Shown: positions 39,350-43,932 of the stretch, piece after piece
How the letters are laid out: each line of letters begins with the position of its first letter
How positions within the stretch are numbered: the stretch's first letter is position 1
Assembly: GCA_964547585.1 (NCBI GenBank)
Contig: CAZJOI010000004.1
Coordinates: 1-50,723 of the forward strand
DNA length: 50,723 nt
Reading direction: 5' to 3'
DNA from: an uncultured Bdellovibrionales bacterium
Lineage (GTDB): Bacteria; Patescibacteriota; Minisyncoccia; Moranbacterales; UBA2206
Notes under the pieces: generated by a model
The model's database searches: none
Told to the model about the DNA's origin: nothing
The model's input: only the letters and a program-made list of their open reading frames with translations
Translations under genes and position numbers: made by a program

Positions 39350-39823
39350 TTACTTTTTTCTATTTCGTCCTCTGTGTGTTGGCTTAAGACTATGACAGTT
39401 TGGACAAAGTACTCTTAAATTTTCAATTCTATTATCTCTGCTATTTCCGTTGATATGATCCAACTCTAGCGGCAATCTTCCATCTTTTGACTTTTGTTTC
39501 CAACCACATTCTTCGCAGTGCTGTGGCTTCAGTTTTGCTGCAAATAATCTTTTCTTTAATTTATAACTTTGAAAATAGCTATCTTTTTTTAAAATATCTT
39601 TTAATTCAATTCTTGGTTTTCCAATTCCTCGCAAACCCTTATTCCATCCCTGACCAGTAAAATGATTCGTGTTGATTTTATACTCCTTGATGTATTTATT
39701 AATCTGAGTATAATTACCTCCGGCCATTTTCAAATTTAAAAGCTTGAGAACTTGTCGGATACTTTTTGATTTTTTAACAGAAGTTCTGAGTTTGTTCTCA
39801 TCCCAGCTGCGGTTTTTATTCAT
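39350..39823 (-). CDS. Free-standing HNH endonuclease
   Basis: CEECGW...LELDHINGNSRDNRIENLRVLCPNCH is an HNH motif with CxxC pairs. It lies between two tRNA genes. Confidence 0.85.
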   Translation of the reverse strand: MNKNRSWDENKLRTSVKKSKSIRQVLKLLNLKMAGGNYTQINKYIKEYKINTNHFTGQGWNKGLRGIGKPRIELKDILKKDSYFQSYKLKKRLFAAKLKPQHCEECGWKQKSKDGRLPLELDHINGNSRDNRIENLRVLCPNCHSLKPTHRGRNRKK

Positions 39824-40613: not shown

Positions 40614-40848
40614 AAGTTACTTTTAATTGTTAATTTGCCCTTGTGAAAAGCTTTTTTTCACAATGACTAATTATTGTAGCAGACTTGGGTCGGGTTGTCA
40701 AAGGTAAACACCAAAAAATGGCTAAAACAAGCCATTATAATTTTAGCCGTCAGTGTCCCTTGGCTTAAATAAAGCAAAAAGATGCAAAATGCTAGTCCAA
40801 GTTAAAAAAACAAAAACAGCCCAATCAAAGGCCGTTTTTGCAACTTGG

Positions 40849-40997
40849 AGCTGTTTTTATGCGGAAGCTCGAACTTTTTTTGAAAAGAATTTTTGATTTT
40901 ACGCTCGGGCGGGCAAAAAGGGAAAGGGTCTGGGAAAAGGAATTTTTGCCCGCCCTCGCTTTCCGATTCCGATTTTTCCGCCGCCGCCGAATTTCGT
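40849..40997 (+). repeat. Island-terminal 149-nt repeat (A' arm), inverted copy at 43556-43704
   Basis: Hand alignment to the reverse complement of 43556-43704 gives 141/149 identical. It contains a 13-bp hairpin gggcgggcaaaaa/tttttgcccgccc (40907-40919 with 40943-40955). Confidence 0.9.
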
Positions 40998-41039
40998 GCC
41001 AATTTCATTGGCGCGCCGCCTAAAATTTATGCAAAAACA

Positions 41040-42218
41040 CTAGGCGTTTTTTTGGTTACAAATATTTTCTATAAAAATAATGAATTTTTGACTAATACTA
41101 AAACTTTCTTCAACTTCTTTCCTTTCAAATATTTTTCCTTCATGAGCGACATCATTTCTTCTTTTCCGGGCTATCTCACGCCATCTCTTGCATTCATCGC
41201 TCTCTTTTAGAAAACCTTCTTTCTTCGCTTTTAATGCATTTGTAATCAAACATTTTTCCAATTGGATAACCCTCTTATTTGTTGTTGAATATTCACTTTT
41301 ATAATCTTCAAATAAATCTGTAATCTCTTGATCATTTTTTCCATCATCTTTAAGAAATTTTCTAAGATGGAAACTAACAGTCATATCAACAGCTGTATCA
41401 AAATCTACTATTGCTGCTTGATAATCGGCACTCAAACTAATTCTTTCAAGTCCTGAAAGTAACATTCTTCTATACGGTCTTATTTCTGATCCAGAAAGGC
41501 ATTTAAGAAAAGATTCGTATTTTGAAATATCAATCATAGGCTCTTTAATATCAGTTTTAGATACCGAAGCATATCTTCCACGAAAAAGAGGGCTATCGTC
41601 TTTTTCGCTTTTATCACCTCTCATTGGATAAGAGATGAATTTACGCCGCTCCTTTTGAAGTTTAAATAAATTTTCCGTTGGATTATTTTTTTCAGTTTCA
41701 GAAAATTCACTTATGTAACACAATGTATAAAGTGAAAAATCATCCTCTATCGACAAGAATCTATTTCTTACGCTACCAATTTGTCTATATGCGGATAAAA
41801 ATTTATTAAAAAATGAATACATGCGATTGAATGCTTTATTGCACGCGCTATCATCATGTAGGCAAAATATATCATCTGTTACAAAAACAATCTCTATTTC
41901 AGAAAAAAACCAAGGATAAATTACATGACCACCTTCGCCAGCCACGATCTGCGTGACACCTCCGTTTTCTAAGACTAATTTAAGGTAAGCACTCTTATCT
42001 GAAAAGTGTAATTTTTCTAGAAATGAACTCTCGCCAGTTCTTTCTCTTTGAACATACCTTTTATCAAAAGATTGAATGCCTTCTTTACGAAAAATCTTAA
42101 CCAAAGCAACATCTTTTTTTGGGAAAAGTGTTACTGGATAATAAAAATTGGATGAAACTCCCAAATCGAAAGGATAATCAAAAACAAATTTAATTAATCC
42201 TGAGGTTTTTTTATCCAT
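41040..42218 (-). CDS. Hypothetical protein with a C-terminal HEPN-like Rx4H motif (candidate RNase/abortive-infection effector)
   Basis: C-terminal helical region ...YQAAIVDFDTAVDMTVSFHLRKFL...RWREIARKRRNDVAHEGKIFERKEV... contains R-N-D-V-A-H, the Rx4-6H motif in the RNxxxH form typical of HEPN. The first ATG is at 42218 (MDKKTSG); the ORF-track start is a TTG. Confidence 0.6.
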   Translation of the reverse strand: MDKKTSGLIKFVFDYPFDLGVSSNFYYPVTLFPKKDVALVKIFRKEGIQSFDKRYVQRERTGESSFLEKLHFSDKSAYLKLVLENGGVTQIVAGEGGHVIYPWFFSEIEIVFVTDDIFCLHDDSACNKAFNRMYSFFNKFLSAYRQIGSVRNRFLSIEDDFSLYTLCYISEFSETEKNNPTENLFKLQKERRKFISYPMRGDKSEKDDSPLFRGRYASVSKTDIKEPMIDISKYESFLKCLSGSEIRPYRRMLLSGLERISLSADYQAAIVDFDTAVDMTVSFHLRKFLKDDGKNDQEITDLFEDYKSEYSTTNKRVIQLEKCLITNALKAKKEGFLKESDECKRWREIARKRRNDVAHEGKIFERKEVEESFSISQKFIIFIENICNQKNA

Positions 42219-42228
42219 GTAAGAAAGC

Positions 42229-42540
42229 TTAGACAAGTAATAAAACAAAAAAGAATTTGGTTGCAAAGAAAGTTATAATAACGCTCAAAACGGTAATCAA
42301 AATGGAAATACTGGGAAATAATCGCTTTAGAATAAATAATGGCATCGCAATTAAAATGCTAGTAAGAAACAATCCTCCTATTAAAAATAAAGTTGCCCAT
42401 ATCCAACCACCAACATCACCGCTCACAGTAAATACCATATAAACATATGAAATAAAAAAGACCGCCATAATTAATTTGCTAAAAGAATTGGCTTTTGCAT
42501 TATAGTCTGGCTGGCTAGATATTTGTTGTAATTTATTCAT
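42229..42540 (-). CDS. Small 3-TM membrane protein
   Basis: 103 aa with three hydrophobic segments. It ends 10 nt upstream of the next gene. Confidence 0.6.
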   Translation of the reverse strand: MNKLQQISSQPDYNAKANSFSKLIMAVFFISYVYMVFTVSGDVGGWIWATLFLIGGLFLTSILIAMPLFILKRLFPSISILITVLSVIITFFATKFFFVLLLV

Positions 42541-42568
42541 ATTTTTTAGTTTTAGTAAAAATTGATCC

Positions 42569-43153
42569 TTATTTTATTCCGTCAATAGTGTCCGTCTGAT
42601 CCTTTTCAGCCAGAAGAACAGCGAGTTCATCAAATAATTGACGGTCTGTGTTAAGTAATTGATGCATGCTATTCATATTTTTTTCCACAATAGAAGCTAA
42701 AAAATAACGAAGAGGAGCAACTCCTTTTGTTACCTCTAACAAAATTCGCATTAAATCAAGGTTATTATATATATCTACATTATGCGCATAAAACTTATTG
42801 AATCCCCATGTGTATGGAAATGACTGGCAAAGAAACATTTTTGCATAACGACTTTCTTTTTCCCCCATTGATGGTATGAGAGCAACATAAGCATTACCTA
42901 TTAGTGCTAAGGGAACTCCAATAATTGAAGATAGTGGTCTTAAGATTTTTATTTTTTCATAAACATAAGATAGTCCAAGGAGTGGTCCTAAAAATATTAT
43001 TGTCCACACCGAGCTCATTAGCAAAAGTAAAAGTACTCCGATAATAGGTATGGAAACGAATAATCCTAAAATTAAAGTTGTCAGCATCTGAACAGGAACA
43101 ACAATAATTCCTGTAGCCCCCACGAGTATTCTTAAAATTTTGTTTGTAACCAT
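42569..43153 (-). CDS. Membrane protein (3-4 N-terminal TM segments plus a soluble C-terminal domain)
   Basis: 194-aa ORF starting 14 nt downstream of the XRE gene stop. Confidence 0.6.
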   Translation of the reverse strand: MVTNKILRILVGATGIIVVPVQMLTTLILGLFVSIPIIGVLLLLLMSSVWTIIFLGPLLGLSYVYEKIKILRPLSSIIGVPLALIGNAYVALIPSMGEKESRYAKMFLCQSFPYTWGFNKFYAHNVDIYNNLDLMRILLEVTKGVAPLRYFLASIVEKNMNSMHQLLNTDRQLFDELAVLLAEKDQTDTIDGIK

Positions 43154-43167
43154 GGCTTTTTAAAAAA

Positions 43168-43365
43168 TTATTTAATCAATTCATCAACACTAACTTCAAG
43201 CGCTTTGGAAATTTTTTTAAGCGTATCAAGTGTTGGATTTTGATTTTTTCCAGCTTCAATCTTGATAATTGTATTATTGGCAACATCGGCTAATCTTGCC
43301 AGTTTTTCTTGAGATAATCCTTTGGCTTCTCTAAGTTTCCTAAGTGTTTTTTGAATGTTTGACAT
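43168..43365 (-). CDS. XRE-family helix-turn-helix transcriptional regulator
   Basis: LRKLREAKGLSQEKLARLADVANNTIIKIEAGKNQNPTLDTLKKISKALEVSVDELI is the HTH_3 pattern. Confidence 0.9.
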   Translation of the reverse strand: MSNIQKTLRKLREAKGLSQEKLARLADVANNTIIKIEAGKNQNPTLDTLKKISKALEVSVDELIK

Positions 43366-43409
43366 ACTTATATTATAGTAGTAGAATTATATTATTAGTA
43401 CTATTTCCT

Positions 43410-43431
43410 TTCAGCTACTTTTCAGCTACTT
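43410..43431. promoter_or_regulatory. Perfect tandem 2 x 11-nt repeat (tcagctacttt) upstream of the XRE operon; candidate operator
   Basis: Read directly. On the minus strand a TATAAT lies 7 nt upstream of the XRE ATG (ACTACTATAATATAAGTATG), which suggests a leaderless or near-leaderless transcript. Confidence 0.4.
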
Positions 43432-43555
43432 TAATGCTACACCAAAAATCAAAAATAGCAAATACAAAAGGGAGTTATTTTGCGTTGTGTGCGCAAGGGC
43501 GGGCGGGGCAAACACAACCACATATGCCTTGGTGGCGCTTTTCGCAAAGCGAAAA

Positions 43556-43704
43556 ACGAAATTTGGCGGCGGCGGAAAAATCAGAATTTGAAAGCGAGGG
43601 CGGGCAAAAATTCCTTTTCCCAGACCCTTTCCCTTTTTGCCCGCCCGAGCGCAAAATCAAAAATCCTTTTCAAAAAAAGTTCGAGCTTCTGAATAAAAAC
43701 AGCT
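43556..43704 (-). repeat. Inverted internal copy of the island-terminal repeat (A' arm)
   Basis: See 40849-40997: about 95 % identity in reverse complement. Confidence 0.9.
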
Positions 43705-43878
43705 CATTTCGGAAAATCGCATTTTTGAAAGCGCGATTTTCCATTAGTTTAGGGCTTGAAAACTCACGATTTTGTTTTGGAGAGTCCAATTCATTTGAGC
43801 GAAGCTCAAATTTGAATAAAATTCAACAGCCGATTTTTTGCATTTTCGCCAAAGGCGAAATTTCCAAATTTTCAGAGT
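43702..43878 (-). pseudogene. Fossil of a serine-recombinase 3' end (inverted copy of 45261-45402)
   Basis: The reverse complement aligns to the live recombinase 3' end: the first 86 nt are 82/86 identical, then a 36-nt indel, then patchy identity. Translation gives SENLE..KIG..NWTLQNKIVSFQALN*WKIALSKMRFSEMS with in-frame stops. Confidence 0.7.
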
Positions 43879-43932
43879 AAAAAAAGCGCCAATTTTTGTC
43901 CAAAAGCAATTTTAATAATCAAAATAAATAAT

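What the first reader, a model, noticed from the sequence alone, without database searches (positions are those of the whole stretch)
41040..43365. XRE regulator, two small membrane proteins and an Rx4H (HEPN-like) protein: candidate undescribed defence/abortive-infection operon carried as island cargo
Four tightly spaced co-directional genes (gaps of 10-28 nt) form the entire cargo of the serine-recombinase island. They are a 65-aa XRE HTH repressor-type protein, a 194-aa protein with 3-4 TM segments plus a soluble tail, a 103-aa 3-TM protein and a 392-aa protein. The last ends in a helical region containing RKRRNDVAHEG. R-N-x-x-x-H is the classical HEPN (Rx4-6H) RNase active-site signature, found in Abi-type toxins, Cas13, Csm6 and toxin-antitoxin systems. 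Its N-terminal 250 residues match nothing I recognise. An HEPN effector paired with small membrane proteins, under an XRE switch and on a mobile island, fits a phage-defence or addiction module. I know of no named system with this exact composition, and defence systems in CPR-like bacteria are sparsely described.
Basis: partly seen in the sequence, partly recalled or inferred. Interest (0 to 1): 0.78.

Follow-up and report, generated by a model that had tools for sequence, protein, structure and literature searches.

The report
HEPN nuclease on small mobile island
A 4.5-kb mobile island inserted in a glycine tRNA gene carries a regulator, two swappable membrane-protein genes and an unclassified HEPN-type predicted RNA-cutting protein; relatives of that protein sit inside restriction-modification operons, so it is probably a new anti-phage nuclease rather than a fixed four-gene system.

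Summary
The four co-directional genes exist as described, on the minus strand. Together with a 491-aa large serine recombinase they fill an island at 40848-45402, inserted in the 3' end of tRNA-Gly(GCC).

The 392-aa protein belongs to a small family with no Pfam, NCBIfam or PADLOC match. R354-N355-x3-H359 is invariant in 16 relatives and at least 90% conserved in 58. Remote relatives give repeated weak hits only to HEPN families. The C-terminal 145 aa model as a confident helical bundle. The N-terminal domain has no detectable structural analogue.

Distant family members lie directly after two unrelated hsdS genes, between type III mod and res, and beside Panacea and Fic genes. These are typical defence contexts.

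The four-gene unit is not conserved. Close relatives keep recombinase, XRE and HEPN. The slot between XRE and HEPN holds at least six different mixes of unrelated membrane or secreted proteins. The 194-aa family also occurs elsewhere without the HEPN gene.

Verdict: a new HEPN subfamily, probably a self-contained abortive-infection RNase, on a mini-island. The membrane genes are interchangeable cargo or optional partners. The island also carries an inverted internal copy of its own joined ends, which remains unexplained.

The parts
41040..42218 (-). 392-aa two-domain protein. It has a novel beta-rich N-terminal domain with a long FNKFLxxYR helix, and a C-terminal HEPN-like domain. This is the conserved payload.
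   Evidence: The family has 16 members in 5.8e9 proteins and 92 clusters in the 1.8e9 representatives. AF2 gives pLDDT 90.7 and pTM 0.88. There is no Pfam, NCBIfam or PADLOC hit.
41046..41477 (-). C-terminal HEPN-like helical domain, residues 248-391.
   Evidence: Modelled helices are 248-263, 266-291, 296-304, 313-326, 341-360 and 366-391. Translation was checked. Remote relatives hit HEPN_RiboL-PSP (13 of 72), HEPN, Swt1, Apea and MAE_28990. They also hit Csm6/Csx1, CARF_HEPN, Cas13a and AbiD models.
41136..41168 (-). RKRRNDVAHEG, the predicted catalytic R-N-x3-H motif (R354, N355, H359).
   Evidence: Translation. The motif is invariant in alignment A1. R354 and H359 are at least 90% conserved in A3.
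42229..42540 (-). 103-aa protein with about three hydrophobic segments. It occupies the variable slot.
   Evidence: Hydropathy. Homologues at 64-67% identity lie directly upstream of the HEPN gene in L020, L021, L022 and L029 only. It has no family match.
42569..43153 (-). 194-aa membrane protein with an N-terminal hydrophobic region and a polar tail of about 100 aa. It occupies the variable slot.
   Evidence: Hydropathy. It has 33 homologues. None is next to a HEPN homologue. They occur in other contexts.
43168..43365 (-). 65-aa XRE/Cro-C1 HTH regulator, first gene of the operon.
   Evidence: HTH_3 E 3.6e-18. It is 95-98% identical in L004, L005, L014 and L039.
43386..43414 (-). Promoter-like site (CTGAAA-17-TATAAT) about 20 nt upstream of the XRE start.
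   Evidence: Consensus scan only, 10 of 12 matches. The count of such sites in the region is not above shuffles, so the evidence is weak.
43933..45408 (+). 491-aa large serine recombinase. Its last two codons and its stop lie in tRNA-side sequence.
   Evidence: Resolvase, Recombinase and Zn_ribbon_recom domains. phrog_95 integrase E 1.7e-78. The sequence is shown.
40848..40997 (.). Island left end ('A'), ending in the core GAGC. It is one arm of the 150-nt inverted repeat.
   Evidence: Inverted repeat I1, 95% complementary. The junction was read. The same 152-nt repeat is 99% complementary in L004.
43556..43792 (.). Internal inverted copy of the joined island ends, the reverse complement of B'-GAGC-A. 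It includes a duplicate of the last 30 codons of the recombinase.
   Evidence: Inverted repeats I1 and I2. tblastn finds recombinase residues 461-490 at 43791-43702. The junction is shown.
45312..45402 (.). Island right end ('B''), abutting tRNA-Gly. It is one arm of the 91-nt inverted repeat.
   Evidence: Inverted repeat I2, 95% complementary. It is 100% complementary in L004, L005 and L014.
45399..45471 (-). tRNA-Gly(GCC), the integration target. Joining the two chromosomal flanks rebuilds ...ACCCGCTCCA followed by a terminator.
   Evidence: ARAGORN and Rfam. The rebuilt site was compared with the uninterrupted tRNA-Gly in L030.
40810..40841 (-). Terminator-like hairpin just outside the island. 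It is the original terminator downstream of tRNA-Gly.
   Evidence: 13-pair stem followed by a T run.

Best explanation
Window 40848-45402 is a 4.55-kb integrative mini-island. A large serine recombinase placed it in the 3' end of tRNA-Gly(GCC). Its leftward operon is XRE, then two membrane-protein genes, then a 392-aa protein.

The conserved functional payload is the 392-aa protein. It has a novel N-terminal domain joined to a C-terminal HEPN-superfamily domain with an R-N-x3-H active-site motif.

Inferred mechanism, by analogy with characterised HEPN nucleases: the protein is a metal-independent endoRNase. Its own N-terminal domain keeps it inactive, because it persists without any fixed partner. 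A phage-associated cue switches it on. It then cleaves cellular or phage RNA and stops translation, which is abortive infection. In distant relatives it plays this role as an add-on to type I and type III restriction-modification operons.

XRE is the island's transcriptional regulator. The two membrane proteins occupy a shuffling cargo slot. They are not obligate components of the nuclease system.

What is shown: the gene anatomy, the island borders, the motif conservation, the family contexts and the variability of the slot. What is inferred: RNase activity, autoinhibition, the trigger and the defence role.
For: HEPN assignment:
- R351, R354, N355 and H359 are invariant in 16 homologues. R354 and H359 are at least 90% conserved in 58 sequences.
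- The residue after R is N, and conserved acidic residues lie upstream (E258 invariant, D/E278). These are the features listed for HEPN in PMC3710099.
- A family profile finds 92 clusters. hhalign between the close and remote sets gives 100% probability, E 6e-40, over the full length.
- Of 72 remote members, 13 hit Pfam HEPN_RiboL-PSP. Others hit HEPN, Swt1, Apea and MAE_28990.
- The leading PADLOC hits of the remote members are to HEPN-containing families, apart from DzbB (5 members): Csx1/Csm6, CARF_HEPN, Cas13a, AbiD and Cas13-ApeA. Single hits to other families also occur.
- The C-terminal 145 aa form a confident helical bundle. The first, lower-confidence model matched the HEPN structure 2hsb with probability 1.0 and TM 0.68.

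Defence context:
- Relatives lie directly after hsdS in a type I operon, hsdR-hsdM-AAA-x-x-hsdS-[HEPN]-DUF4268.
- A 94%-identical copy follows a different hsdS that is only 33% identical.
- Other relatives lie between type III mod and res, next to SocA/Panacea with MazG and HNH, and next to Fic.

Self-sufficiency:
- The neighbours differ in every context.
- XRE is truncated in L002 with an intact HEPN gene, and absent in L030.

Island:
- The att logic is consistent, and the same tRNA-Gly target is used in a different chromosomal neighbourhood in L004.
Against: - The window protein has no direct hit to any curated HEPN model, even at E up to 1.
- All HEPN hits of the remote relatives are below Pfam gathering scores.
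- The high-confidence model found no significant PDB or BFVD match. The 2hsb hit did not recur among the 50 best matches listed.
- There is no R-M system on this island, so the 'R-M back-up' logic does not transfer directly.
- Nearly every slot gene among close relatives encodes a membrane or secreted protein. Only 23 of 57 ORFs window-wide, about 40%, have such a segment. This hints at a functional link that this explanation leaves open.
- Nothing here is experimental.
Confidence: 0.6

Rival explanations
1. This is a membrane-coupled multi-gene defence system. The small membrane proteins are genuine partners of the HEPN RNase, either as phage sensors at the envelope or as pore-forming co-effectors. 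The relationship would resemble Csx28 with Cas13b. The slot varies because it is under diversifying selection.
For: - The genes are spaced 10-28 nt apart and co-directional.
- In all six slot variants among close relatives, nearly every gene encodes a protein with TM segments or a signal anchor. The variants are window; L014; L005/L039; L030; L029; L038.
- Window-wide, only 23 of 57 ORFs have such a segment.
- A TM protein also follows the distant relative in L015.
- The Cas13b-Csx27/Csx28 precedent is from my own knowledge and was not checked here.
Against: - The slot proteins are unrelated in sequence (BLASTP). A specific protein-protein partnership with a 75-87% conserved HEPN protein is therefore hard to maintain.
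- The 194-aa family occurs without HEPN.
- Distant HEPN relatives in R-M operons, and in L010 and L013, have no adjacent membrane protein.
Confidence: 0.15
2. This is an addiction (toxin-antitoxin-like) module that stabilises the mini-island. The HEPN protein is a toxin, and XRE or a membrane protein neutralises it. Its role would be element maintenance rather than phage defence.
For: - HEPN domains are common TA toxins, and the XRE fold is common in antitoxins. XRE here gives sub-cutoff NCBIfam matches to HipB- and MqsA-type antitoxin models.
- Among close relatives, HEPN and XRE are the conserved non-recombinase genes of the island.
- The HEPN gene persists at the same locus after the recombinase is lost (L002, L030).
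Against: - L002 keeps an intact HEPN gene with XRE reduced to residues 29-65. L030 has no XRE.
- Distant relatives have no XRE and no constant neighbour.
- XRE is separated from HEPN by one to six genes rather than being translationally coupled.
- There is no MNT partner.
Confidence: 0.12
3. The C-terminal domain is a non-catalytic or non-HEPN helical domain. The protein has another role, for example RNA or DNA binding for the mobile element, or a housekeeping function specific to CPR-type bacteria.
For: - There is no direct curated-profile hit.
- The best model has no significant fold match.
- Some HEPN families are non-catalytic (PMC3710099).
Against: - The full catalytic signature is invariant: R, a polar N, then H.
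- The weak hits of the remote relatives concentrate on HEPN families far beyond chance. At E below 0.01, fewer than one false hit is expected in 72 searches, yet 13 hit one family.
- The family is embedded in R-M operons.
- It is absent from most genomes, with only 3 hits among 185,579 species representatives. That argues against a housekeeping role.
Confidence: 0.1

Closest known systems
Abi-type stand-alone HEPN proteins of the Abi2 (AbiD/AbiF) and RiboL-PSP-HEPN clade (Pfam PF18735; Anantharaman et al. 2013, PMC3710099)
   Same: - The C-terminal helical domain has a conserved R-N-x3-H and upstream acidic residues.
- Remote relatives give their most frequent weak hit to PF18735, and one hits AbiD.
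- The family is embedded in R-M operons, as the paper describes for these clades.
   Different: - The window protein has no direct match to either model, and the relatives' hits are below gathering score.
- The N-terminal beta-rich domain of about 245 aa, with its FDYPF and FNKFLxxYR motifs, has no counterpart and no structural analogue.
- There is no L-PSP fusion.
PrrC / RloC anticodon nucleases (HEPN RNases linked to type I R-M)
   Same: - Distant family members occupy a PrrC-like position inside hsdR-hsdM-hsdS operons.
- The logic of a latent RNase held in check until phage attack would fit.
   Different: - There is no ABC-ATPase N-terminal domain (no Pfam hit).
- The window copy is not next to any R-M genes.
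- The RNA target is unknown.
Type VI-B CRISPR Cas13b with small membrane accessory proteins Csx27/Csx28 (from my own knowledge)
   Same: A HEPN RNase is encoded beside small multi-TM proteins.
   Different: - No Cas13, no CRISPR array and no PADLOC Cas hit for the window proteins.
- The membrane partners here are interchangeable and unrelated to one another.
Large-serine-recombinase integrative elements (phiC31-type integrases, SCCmec Ccr, XisF-type excision elements)
   Same: - Resolvase, Recombinase and Zn-ribbon architecture.
- Weak matches to CcrB, XisF and CcrA.
- The recombinase sits at the element end, the crossover core is short, and integration is site-specific into one conserved target.
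   Different: - The element is very small, at 4.55 kb.
- It carries an internal inverted duplicate of its own joined ends, 237 nt long. I do not know this feature from described LSR elements.

Membership tests
HEPN superfamily | Conserved Rx4-6H motif with a polar residue (N/D/H) right after R | tested here: met
   R354-N355-D-V-A-H359 is invariant in 16 homologues. R and H are at least 90% conserved in 58 sequences. The definition is from PMC3710099.
HEPN superfamily | Second conserved acidic residue upstream of the motif | tested here: met
   E258 is invariant, and D/E278 lies in the conserved FDTAV(D/E)M motif. The equivalent E is at least 90% conserved in the remote set. The strict Ex3[KR] form is not seen.
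HEPN superfamily | All-alpha up-down helical bundle fold matching solved HEPN structures | tested here: inconclusive
Residues 248-391 are confidently helical. The better full-length model gave no significant PDB hit.
HEPN superfamily | Significant profile match to a curated HEPN family | tested here: inconclusive
   The direct test gave none at E up to 1. Indirectly, the family profile reaches remote full-length relatives. Of 72 of these, 13 hit HEPN_RiboL-PSP, with a best E of 6.9e-6. Others hit HEPN, Swt1, Apea, MAE_28990, Csm6, Cas13a and AbiD. All are below the curated cut-offs.
HEPN superfamily | Metal-independent endoRNase activity | not testable with these tools
   This needs biochemistry.
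RiboL-PSP-HEPN (PF18735) | Score above the Pfam gathering threshold of 28.4 bits | tested here: not met
   The window protein has no hit. In the ten relatives scanned one by one, hits score 15.7-20 bits. It is the nearest family, but the protein is not a member.
PrrC/RloC anticodon nucleases | N-terminal ABC-type ATPase fused to HEPN | tested here: not met
   No ATPase domain was found in Pfam, NCBIfam or PADLOC. The N-terminal domain is beta-rich.
HEPN-MNT toxin-antitoxin | Adjacent minimal nucleotidyltransferase antitoxin gene | tested here: not met
   None of the island genes has an NTase domain.
Named or candidate defence systems in PADLOC-DB v2 | Match of the effector or partner proteins to a system model | tested here: not met
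   The 392-aa and 103-aa proteins have no hit. The 194-aa protein has only a 0.052 hit to a generic '4TM effector'. XRE hits generic HTH, capH and control-protein models.
   No other locus has all four. The 194-aa family is never next to HEPN. The slot content differs in L014, L005, L029, L030, L038 and L039.
Large serine recombinase integrative element | Resolvase catalytic domain, recombinase domain and zinc ribbon, plus site-specific insertion with a short core | tested here: met
   The core GAGC/GCTC is shared by both ends and the internal site. The flanks rebuild the tRNA-Gly CCA end. The same target is used in L004, L005 and L014. Recombination itself was not tested.

The most novel reading that the evidence does not exclude
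The XRE-[membrane slot]-HEPN operon is a modular, membrane-coupled abortive-infection system. Interchangeable envelope proteins would act as phage sensors or pore co-effectors for a new two-domain HEPN RNase. The system would ride on a mini-element whose circular form has two inverted attP-bearing repeats, like the yeast 2-micron plasmid. That could allow flip-flop inversion, or amplification driven by a serine recombinase.
Probability: 0.12. Interest if true: 0.75.

Novelty: new variant of a known kind. Interest (0 to 1): 0.5.

Why it matters
- It adds a HEPN subfamily that no curated model captures. The subfamily has an N-terminal domain with no detectable structural analogue, and that domain is a candidate sensor.
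- The family recurs inside type I and type III R-M operons, so it is a reasonable candidate for a new single-gene anti-phage effector.
- It shows that genomes related to Parcubacteria-type (CPR) bacteria carry such effectors on a very small serine-recombinase island targeted to a tRNA gene.
- The island's shuffling slot of envelope proteins and its inverted duplicate of the attachment junction are unusual. They could be informative about how minimal mobile elements diversify cargo.
- Practically, it corrects the unit of analysis. The protein to test is the 392-aa protein, not a four-gene system.

Tried and rejected
- Direct family searches of the 392-, 194- and 103-aa proteins in Pfam, NCBIfam, PHROGs and PADLOC found nothing meaningful.
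- Sequence searches against PDB chains with the close and remote profiles gave only spurious helical-repeat or GST hits.
- Foldseek with the pLDDT-90 model found no significant match in PDB or BFVD.
- tblastn of the 392-aa protein against PLSDB plasmids and INPHARED phages found nothing. A pattern scan of IMG/VR found no relative.
- The profile search of the 5.8e9 database with the broad alignment added nothing new.
- Rfam on the island found only the tRNAs. The repeat 'A' is not unusually structured as RNA, with a z-score of -0.78.
- I looked for conserved recombination sites at the slot borders, comparable to integron attC sites. Homology simply stops after the XRE stop codon and resumes at the HEPN start.
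- I considered XRE as an antitoxin and rejected it, because XRE is lost where the HEPN gene is kept.
- I considered the inverted repeats as an assembly artefact and rejected that. The copies differ by 5% in the window, and the same layout occurs in independent assemblies.
- Most literature searches timed out. The two that ran found no description of this family.
Full report
**1. What is there**

The region holds four co-directional minus-strand ORFs:
- XRE, 43168-43365, 65 aa
- a 194-aa protein, 42569-43153
- a 103-aa protein, 42229-42540
- a 392-aa protein, 41040-42218

The gaps between them are 14, 28 and 10 nt. The ATG at 42218 is the supported start of the last gene, because all homologues begin at the equivalent MDKK...GLIKFVFDYPF.

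XRE is a clear Cro/C1-type HTH (HTH_3 E 3.6e-18). A simple hydropathy scan shows hydrophobic stretches at about 1-62 and 74-96 in the 194-aa protein, followed by a polar tail. It shows about three hydrophobic segments in the 103-aa protein. RKRRNDVAHEG is encoded at 41136-41168.

**2. The island and its borders**

A 491-aa large serine recombinase lies at 43933-45408 on the plus strand. It has Resolvase, Recombinase and Zn_ribbon_recom domains and matches the phrog_95 integrase at E 1.7e-78. It abuts tRNA-Gly(GCC) at 45399-45471.

The repeat search found two inverted-repeat pairs:
- 40848-40997 against 43556-43705, 150 nt, 95% complementary
- 43702-43792 against 45312-45402, 91 nt, 95% complementary

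Reading the junctions gives three sites that share a core GAGC (GCTC on the tRNA strand):
- Next to the tRNA: ...ACCCGCTC|ATTTCGG.
- At the far end: ...AAAAACAGCTC|CAAGTTGC.
- Internally: the exact reverse complement of AAAAACAGCTC|ATTTCGG. This is the two island ends joined together.

Joining the two chromosomal flanks rebuilds ...ACCCGCTCCA followed by a terminator-like hairpin at 40841-40810. That is a tRNA-Gly 3' end with CCA, as seen in the uninterrupted tRNA-Gly of L030.

The island therefore spans 40848-45402, or 4.55 kb. It contains only the recombinase and the four genes.

The same layout and the same tRNA-Gly target occur in L004/L005 and in L014. L004 sits in a different chromosomal neighbourhood.

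**3. The 392-aa protein**

It has no hit in Pfam, NCBIfam or PADLOC. The family is small:
- 16 proteins in a 5.8e9-protein database
- 92 clusters at E below 1e-3 in 1.8e9 representatives
- 3 loci among 185,579 species-representative genomes: one Parcubacteria MAG, one Doudnabacteria MAG (a pseudogene) and one Gastranaerophilales MAG
- none in IMG/VR, PLSDB or INPHARED

In the 16-sequence alignment, which goes down to 36% identity, R351, R354, N355 and H359 are invariant. So are E258, the FDTAV(D/E)M block and W346. In a 58-sequence alignment reaching 13-20% identity, R354, H359, W346 and Y144 stay at least 90% conserved.

Profile-profile comparison shows that the remote relatives share the whole two-domain architecture (100% probability, E 6e-40).

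The published HEPN definition (PMC3710099) lists three features: Rx4-6H, a polar residue after the R, and a conserved acidic residue upstream. All three are met.

There is no direct profile evidence for HEPN. The indirect evidence is consistent:
- 13 of 72 remote relatives hit HEPN_RiboL-PSP. Others hit HEPN, Swt1, Apea and MAE_28990.
- Their leading PADLOC hits fall on Csx1/Csm6, CARF_HEPN, Cas13a, AbiD and Cas13-ApeA, all HEPN-containing, plus DzbB; single hits to other families also occur.
- Each hit is below the curated cut-off. Fewer than one false hit is expected across 72 searches at E below 0.01.

With the deeper alignment, AlphaFold2 gives pLDDT 90.7 and pTM 0.88. The model has a beta-rich N-terminal domain with a long helix at 123-147 that carries FNKFLSAYR. 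Residues 248-391 form a helical C-terminal domain, with the motif on helix 341-360.

Foldseek results are mixed. The first, poorer model matched the HEPN structure 2hsb (probability 1.0, TM 0.68). The better full-length model matched nothing significant in PDB or BFVD.

I rate the HEPN assignment at about 0.85. The N-terminal domain is novel as far as these tools can see.

**4. Context of relatives**

Distant family members (34-46% identity) sit in classic defence settings:
- Directly after hsdS in hsdR-hsdM-AAA_15/21-x-x-hsdS-[HEPN]-DUF4268 (L006-L009).
- A 94%-identical copy after a different hsdS, only 33% identical, with a PIN-like gene upstream (L015).
- Immediately after a type III mod gene, and upstream of a type III res gene (L026, L028).
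- Between MazG/HNH and a SocA/Panacea gene (L012).
- Beside Fic (L010).

PMC3710099 describes this pattern for Abi-type HEPN families. It is the strongest argument for a defence role. It also shows that the gene moves and functions as a single-gene module.

**5. The four-gene unit is not conserved**

Among close relatives (74-87% identity), XRE (95-98% identical), the HEPN gene and, where the contig reaches far enough, the recombinase are kept. The genes between XRE and HEPN differ:
- Window: 194 aa and 103 aa.
- L014: 72 aa and 84 aa, each with two TM segments.
- L005, L002 and L039: one protein of 355-373 aa with an N-terminal anchor and an HELTH motif.
- L030: 210 aa, 56 aa and 69 aa.
- L029: six genes, including a homologue of the 103-aa protein.
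- L038: 340 aa, 82 aa and 77 aa.

The slot proteins are unrelated by BLASTP except for shared modules that reappear in different combinations.

The 194-aa family has 33 homologues. None is next to a HEPN gene. They occur beside a TIR protein and among housekeeping genes.

XRE is truncated in L002 and absent in L030, while the HEPN gene remains. This argues against XRE being an essential antitoxin.

Nearly all slot proteins are membrane-anchored or secreted, against 23 of 57 ORFs window-wide. A functional link between envelope proteins and the HEPN protein therefore cannot be dismissed, and I keep it as the main rival.

**6. Mechanism**

My best-supported reading, at confidence 0.6, has four parts:
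- The island is a serine-recombinase mini-element at tRNA-Gly.
- XRE controls its operon. A promoter-like site lies at 43414-43386, but the evidence is weak.
- The 392-aa protein is a latent HEPN endoRNase, autoinhibited or triggered through its N-terminal domain, that acts in abortive infection.
- The membrane genes are exchangeable cargo.

The anatomy, conservation, contexts and slot variability are shown. Catalysis, regulation and the biological role are inferred from knowledge of HEPN families (PrrC, RloC, RNase LS and the Abi proteins).

**7. The inverted internal junction**

In its circular form the island would carry two inverted repeats of about 240 nt. Each would contain the joined ends and the last 30 codons of the recombinase. 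They would separate a 2.56-kb cargo segment from a 1.52-kb recombinase segment.

The repeat arms are 95-100% identical within each element. The 91-nt arm is only 71-79% identical between elements. This means the two copies evolve in concert.

Two independent assemblies have 10-N scaffold gaps at or within about 10 nt of the inner edge of the repeat. Several contigs also end just after the HEPN gene. I could not test for inversion isomers. This feature remains unexplained.

**8. Comparison and verdict**

The closest known proteins are the Abi2 (AbiD/AbiF) and RiboL-PSP-HEPN clade. The closest conceptual parallel is PrrC. The protein fails membership of each specific family: there is no direct profile match, no ABC ATPase domain and no MNT partner. 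It meets the sequence-level definition of the HEPN superfamily.

It is a new variant of a known kind. It is not a new four-gene system. I score interest at 0.5.

Noticed in passing
window 40848-40997, 43556-43792, 45312-45402; also L004 6690-6780, 8300-8536, 11202-11353: The island carries an internal inverted copy of its own joined ends (B'-GAGC-A). A circular form would have two inverted repeats of about 240 nt splitting it into a cargo segment and a recombinase segment, as in the yeast 2-micron plasmid. The arms are 95-100% identical within an element. The 91-nt arm is only 71-79% identical between elements, which indicates concerted evolution.
   Followed up: partly
window 45403-45408 and 43556-43705 (minus strand): The last two codons and the stop of the recombinase ORF come from tRNA-side sequence. 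Across the joined-end junction, as in the internal copy, the same frame would run about 14 codons further (...EMSCFYSEARTFFEKDF). The excised and integrated forms would therefore encode slightly different C-termini.
   Followed up: no
L005 3080-3089; L014 1957-1966: Two independent metagenome assemblies have a 10-N scaffold gap at or within about 10 nt of the inner edge of the 150-nt inverted repeat. Several contigs (L001, L003, L005, L014) end within about 75 nt after the HEPN gene, where the other repeat arm begins. This fits repeat-induced assembly breaks, and possibly mixed orientations.
   Followed up: partly
L005 3480-4547; L002 3390-4466; L039 375-1496: In some relatives the slot is filled by one protein of 355-373 aa with an N-terminal membrane anchor and an HELTH (HExxH-like) motif, directly after XRE. 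An XRE regulator next to a putative metalloprotease recalls ImmR/ImmA- or CapH/CapP-type pairs. No Pfam hit is on record for this protein.
   Followed up: no
L006 8886-11245 versus L015 1934-4380: HEPN-family genes 94% identical to each other lie directly after hsdS genes that are only 33% identical, with different neighbours on both sides. The gene appears to move between R-M loci as a single-gene cassette.
   Followed up: partly
L004 6687-8159; L005 1233-2705: The recombinase of this element copy aligns over all 491 residues but is split into 419-aa and 63-aa ORFs by an in-frame stop. This suggests a decaying copy, even though its repeats are 99-100% identical.
   Followed up: no
window 45684-45728 and 45761-45805: A 45-nt stretch, 96% identical to part of tRNA-Leu(GAG), is repeated directly just downstream of that tRNA. 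ARAGORN does not call the copy as a tRNA. It may be the scar of an older integration at the neighbouring tRNA.
   Followed up: no
window 39350-39823 (minus strand): A free-standing 157-aa HNH endonuclease gene (Pfam HNH E 6.5e-8) sits between tRNA-Leu(TAA) and tRNA-Cys. GIY-YIG genes occupy comparable spots between tRNAs in the related ACD_15 contig (L002). These look like homing-endonuclease-type insertions in tRNA clusters.
   Followed up: no
L031 4273-7204; L032; L033: Homologues of the 194-aa membrane protein lie in a conserved run of 211 aa, 173 aa, 264 aa and a TIR-domain protein, near a BrnA-type antitoxin and an HNH/AP2 gene. This may be another variable or defence-like region.
   Followed up: no
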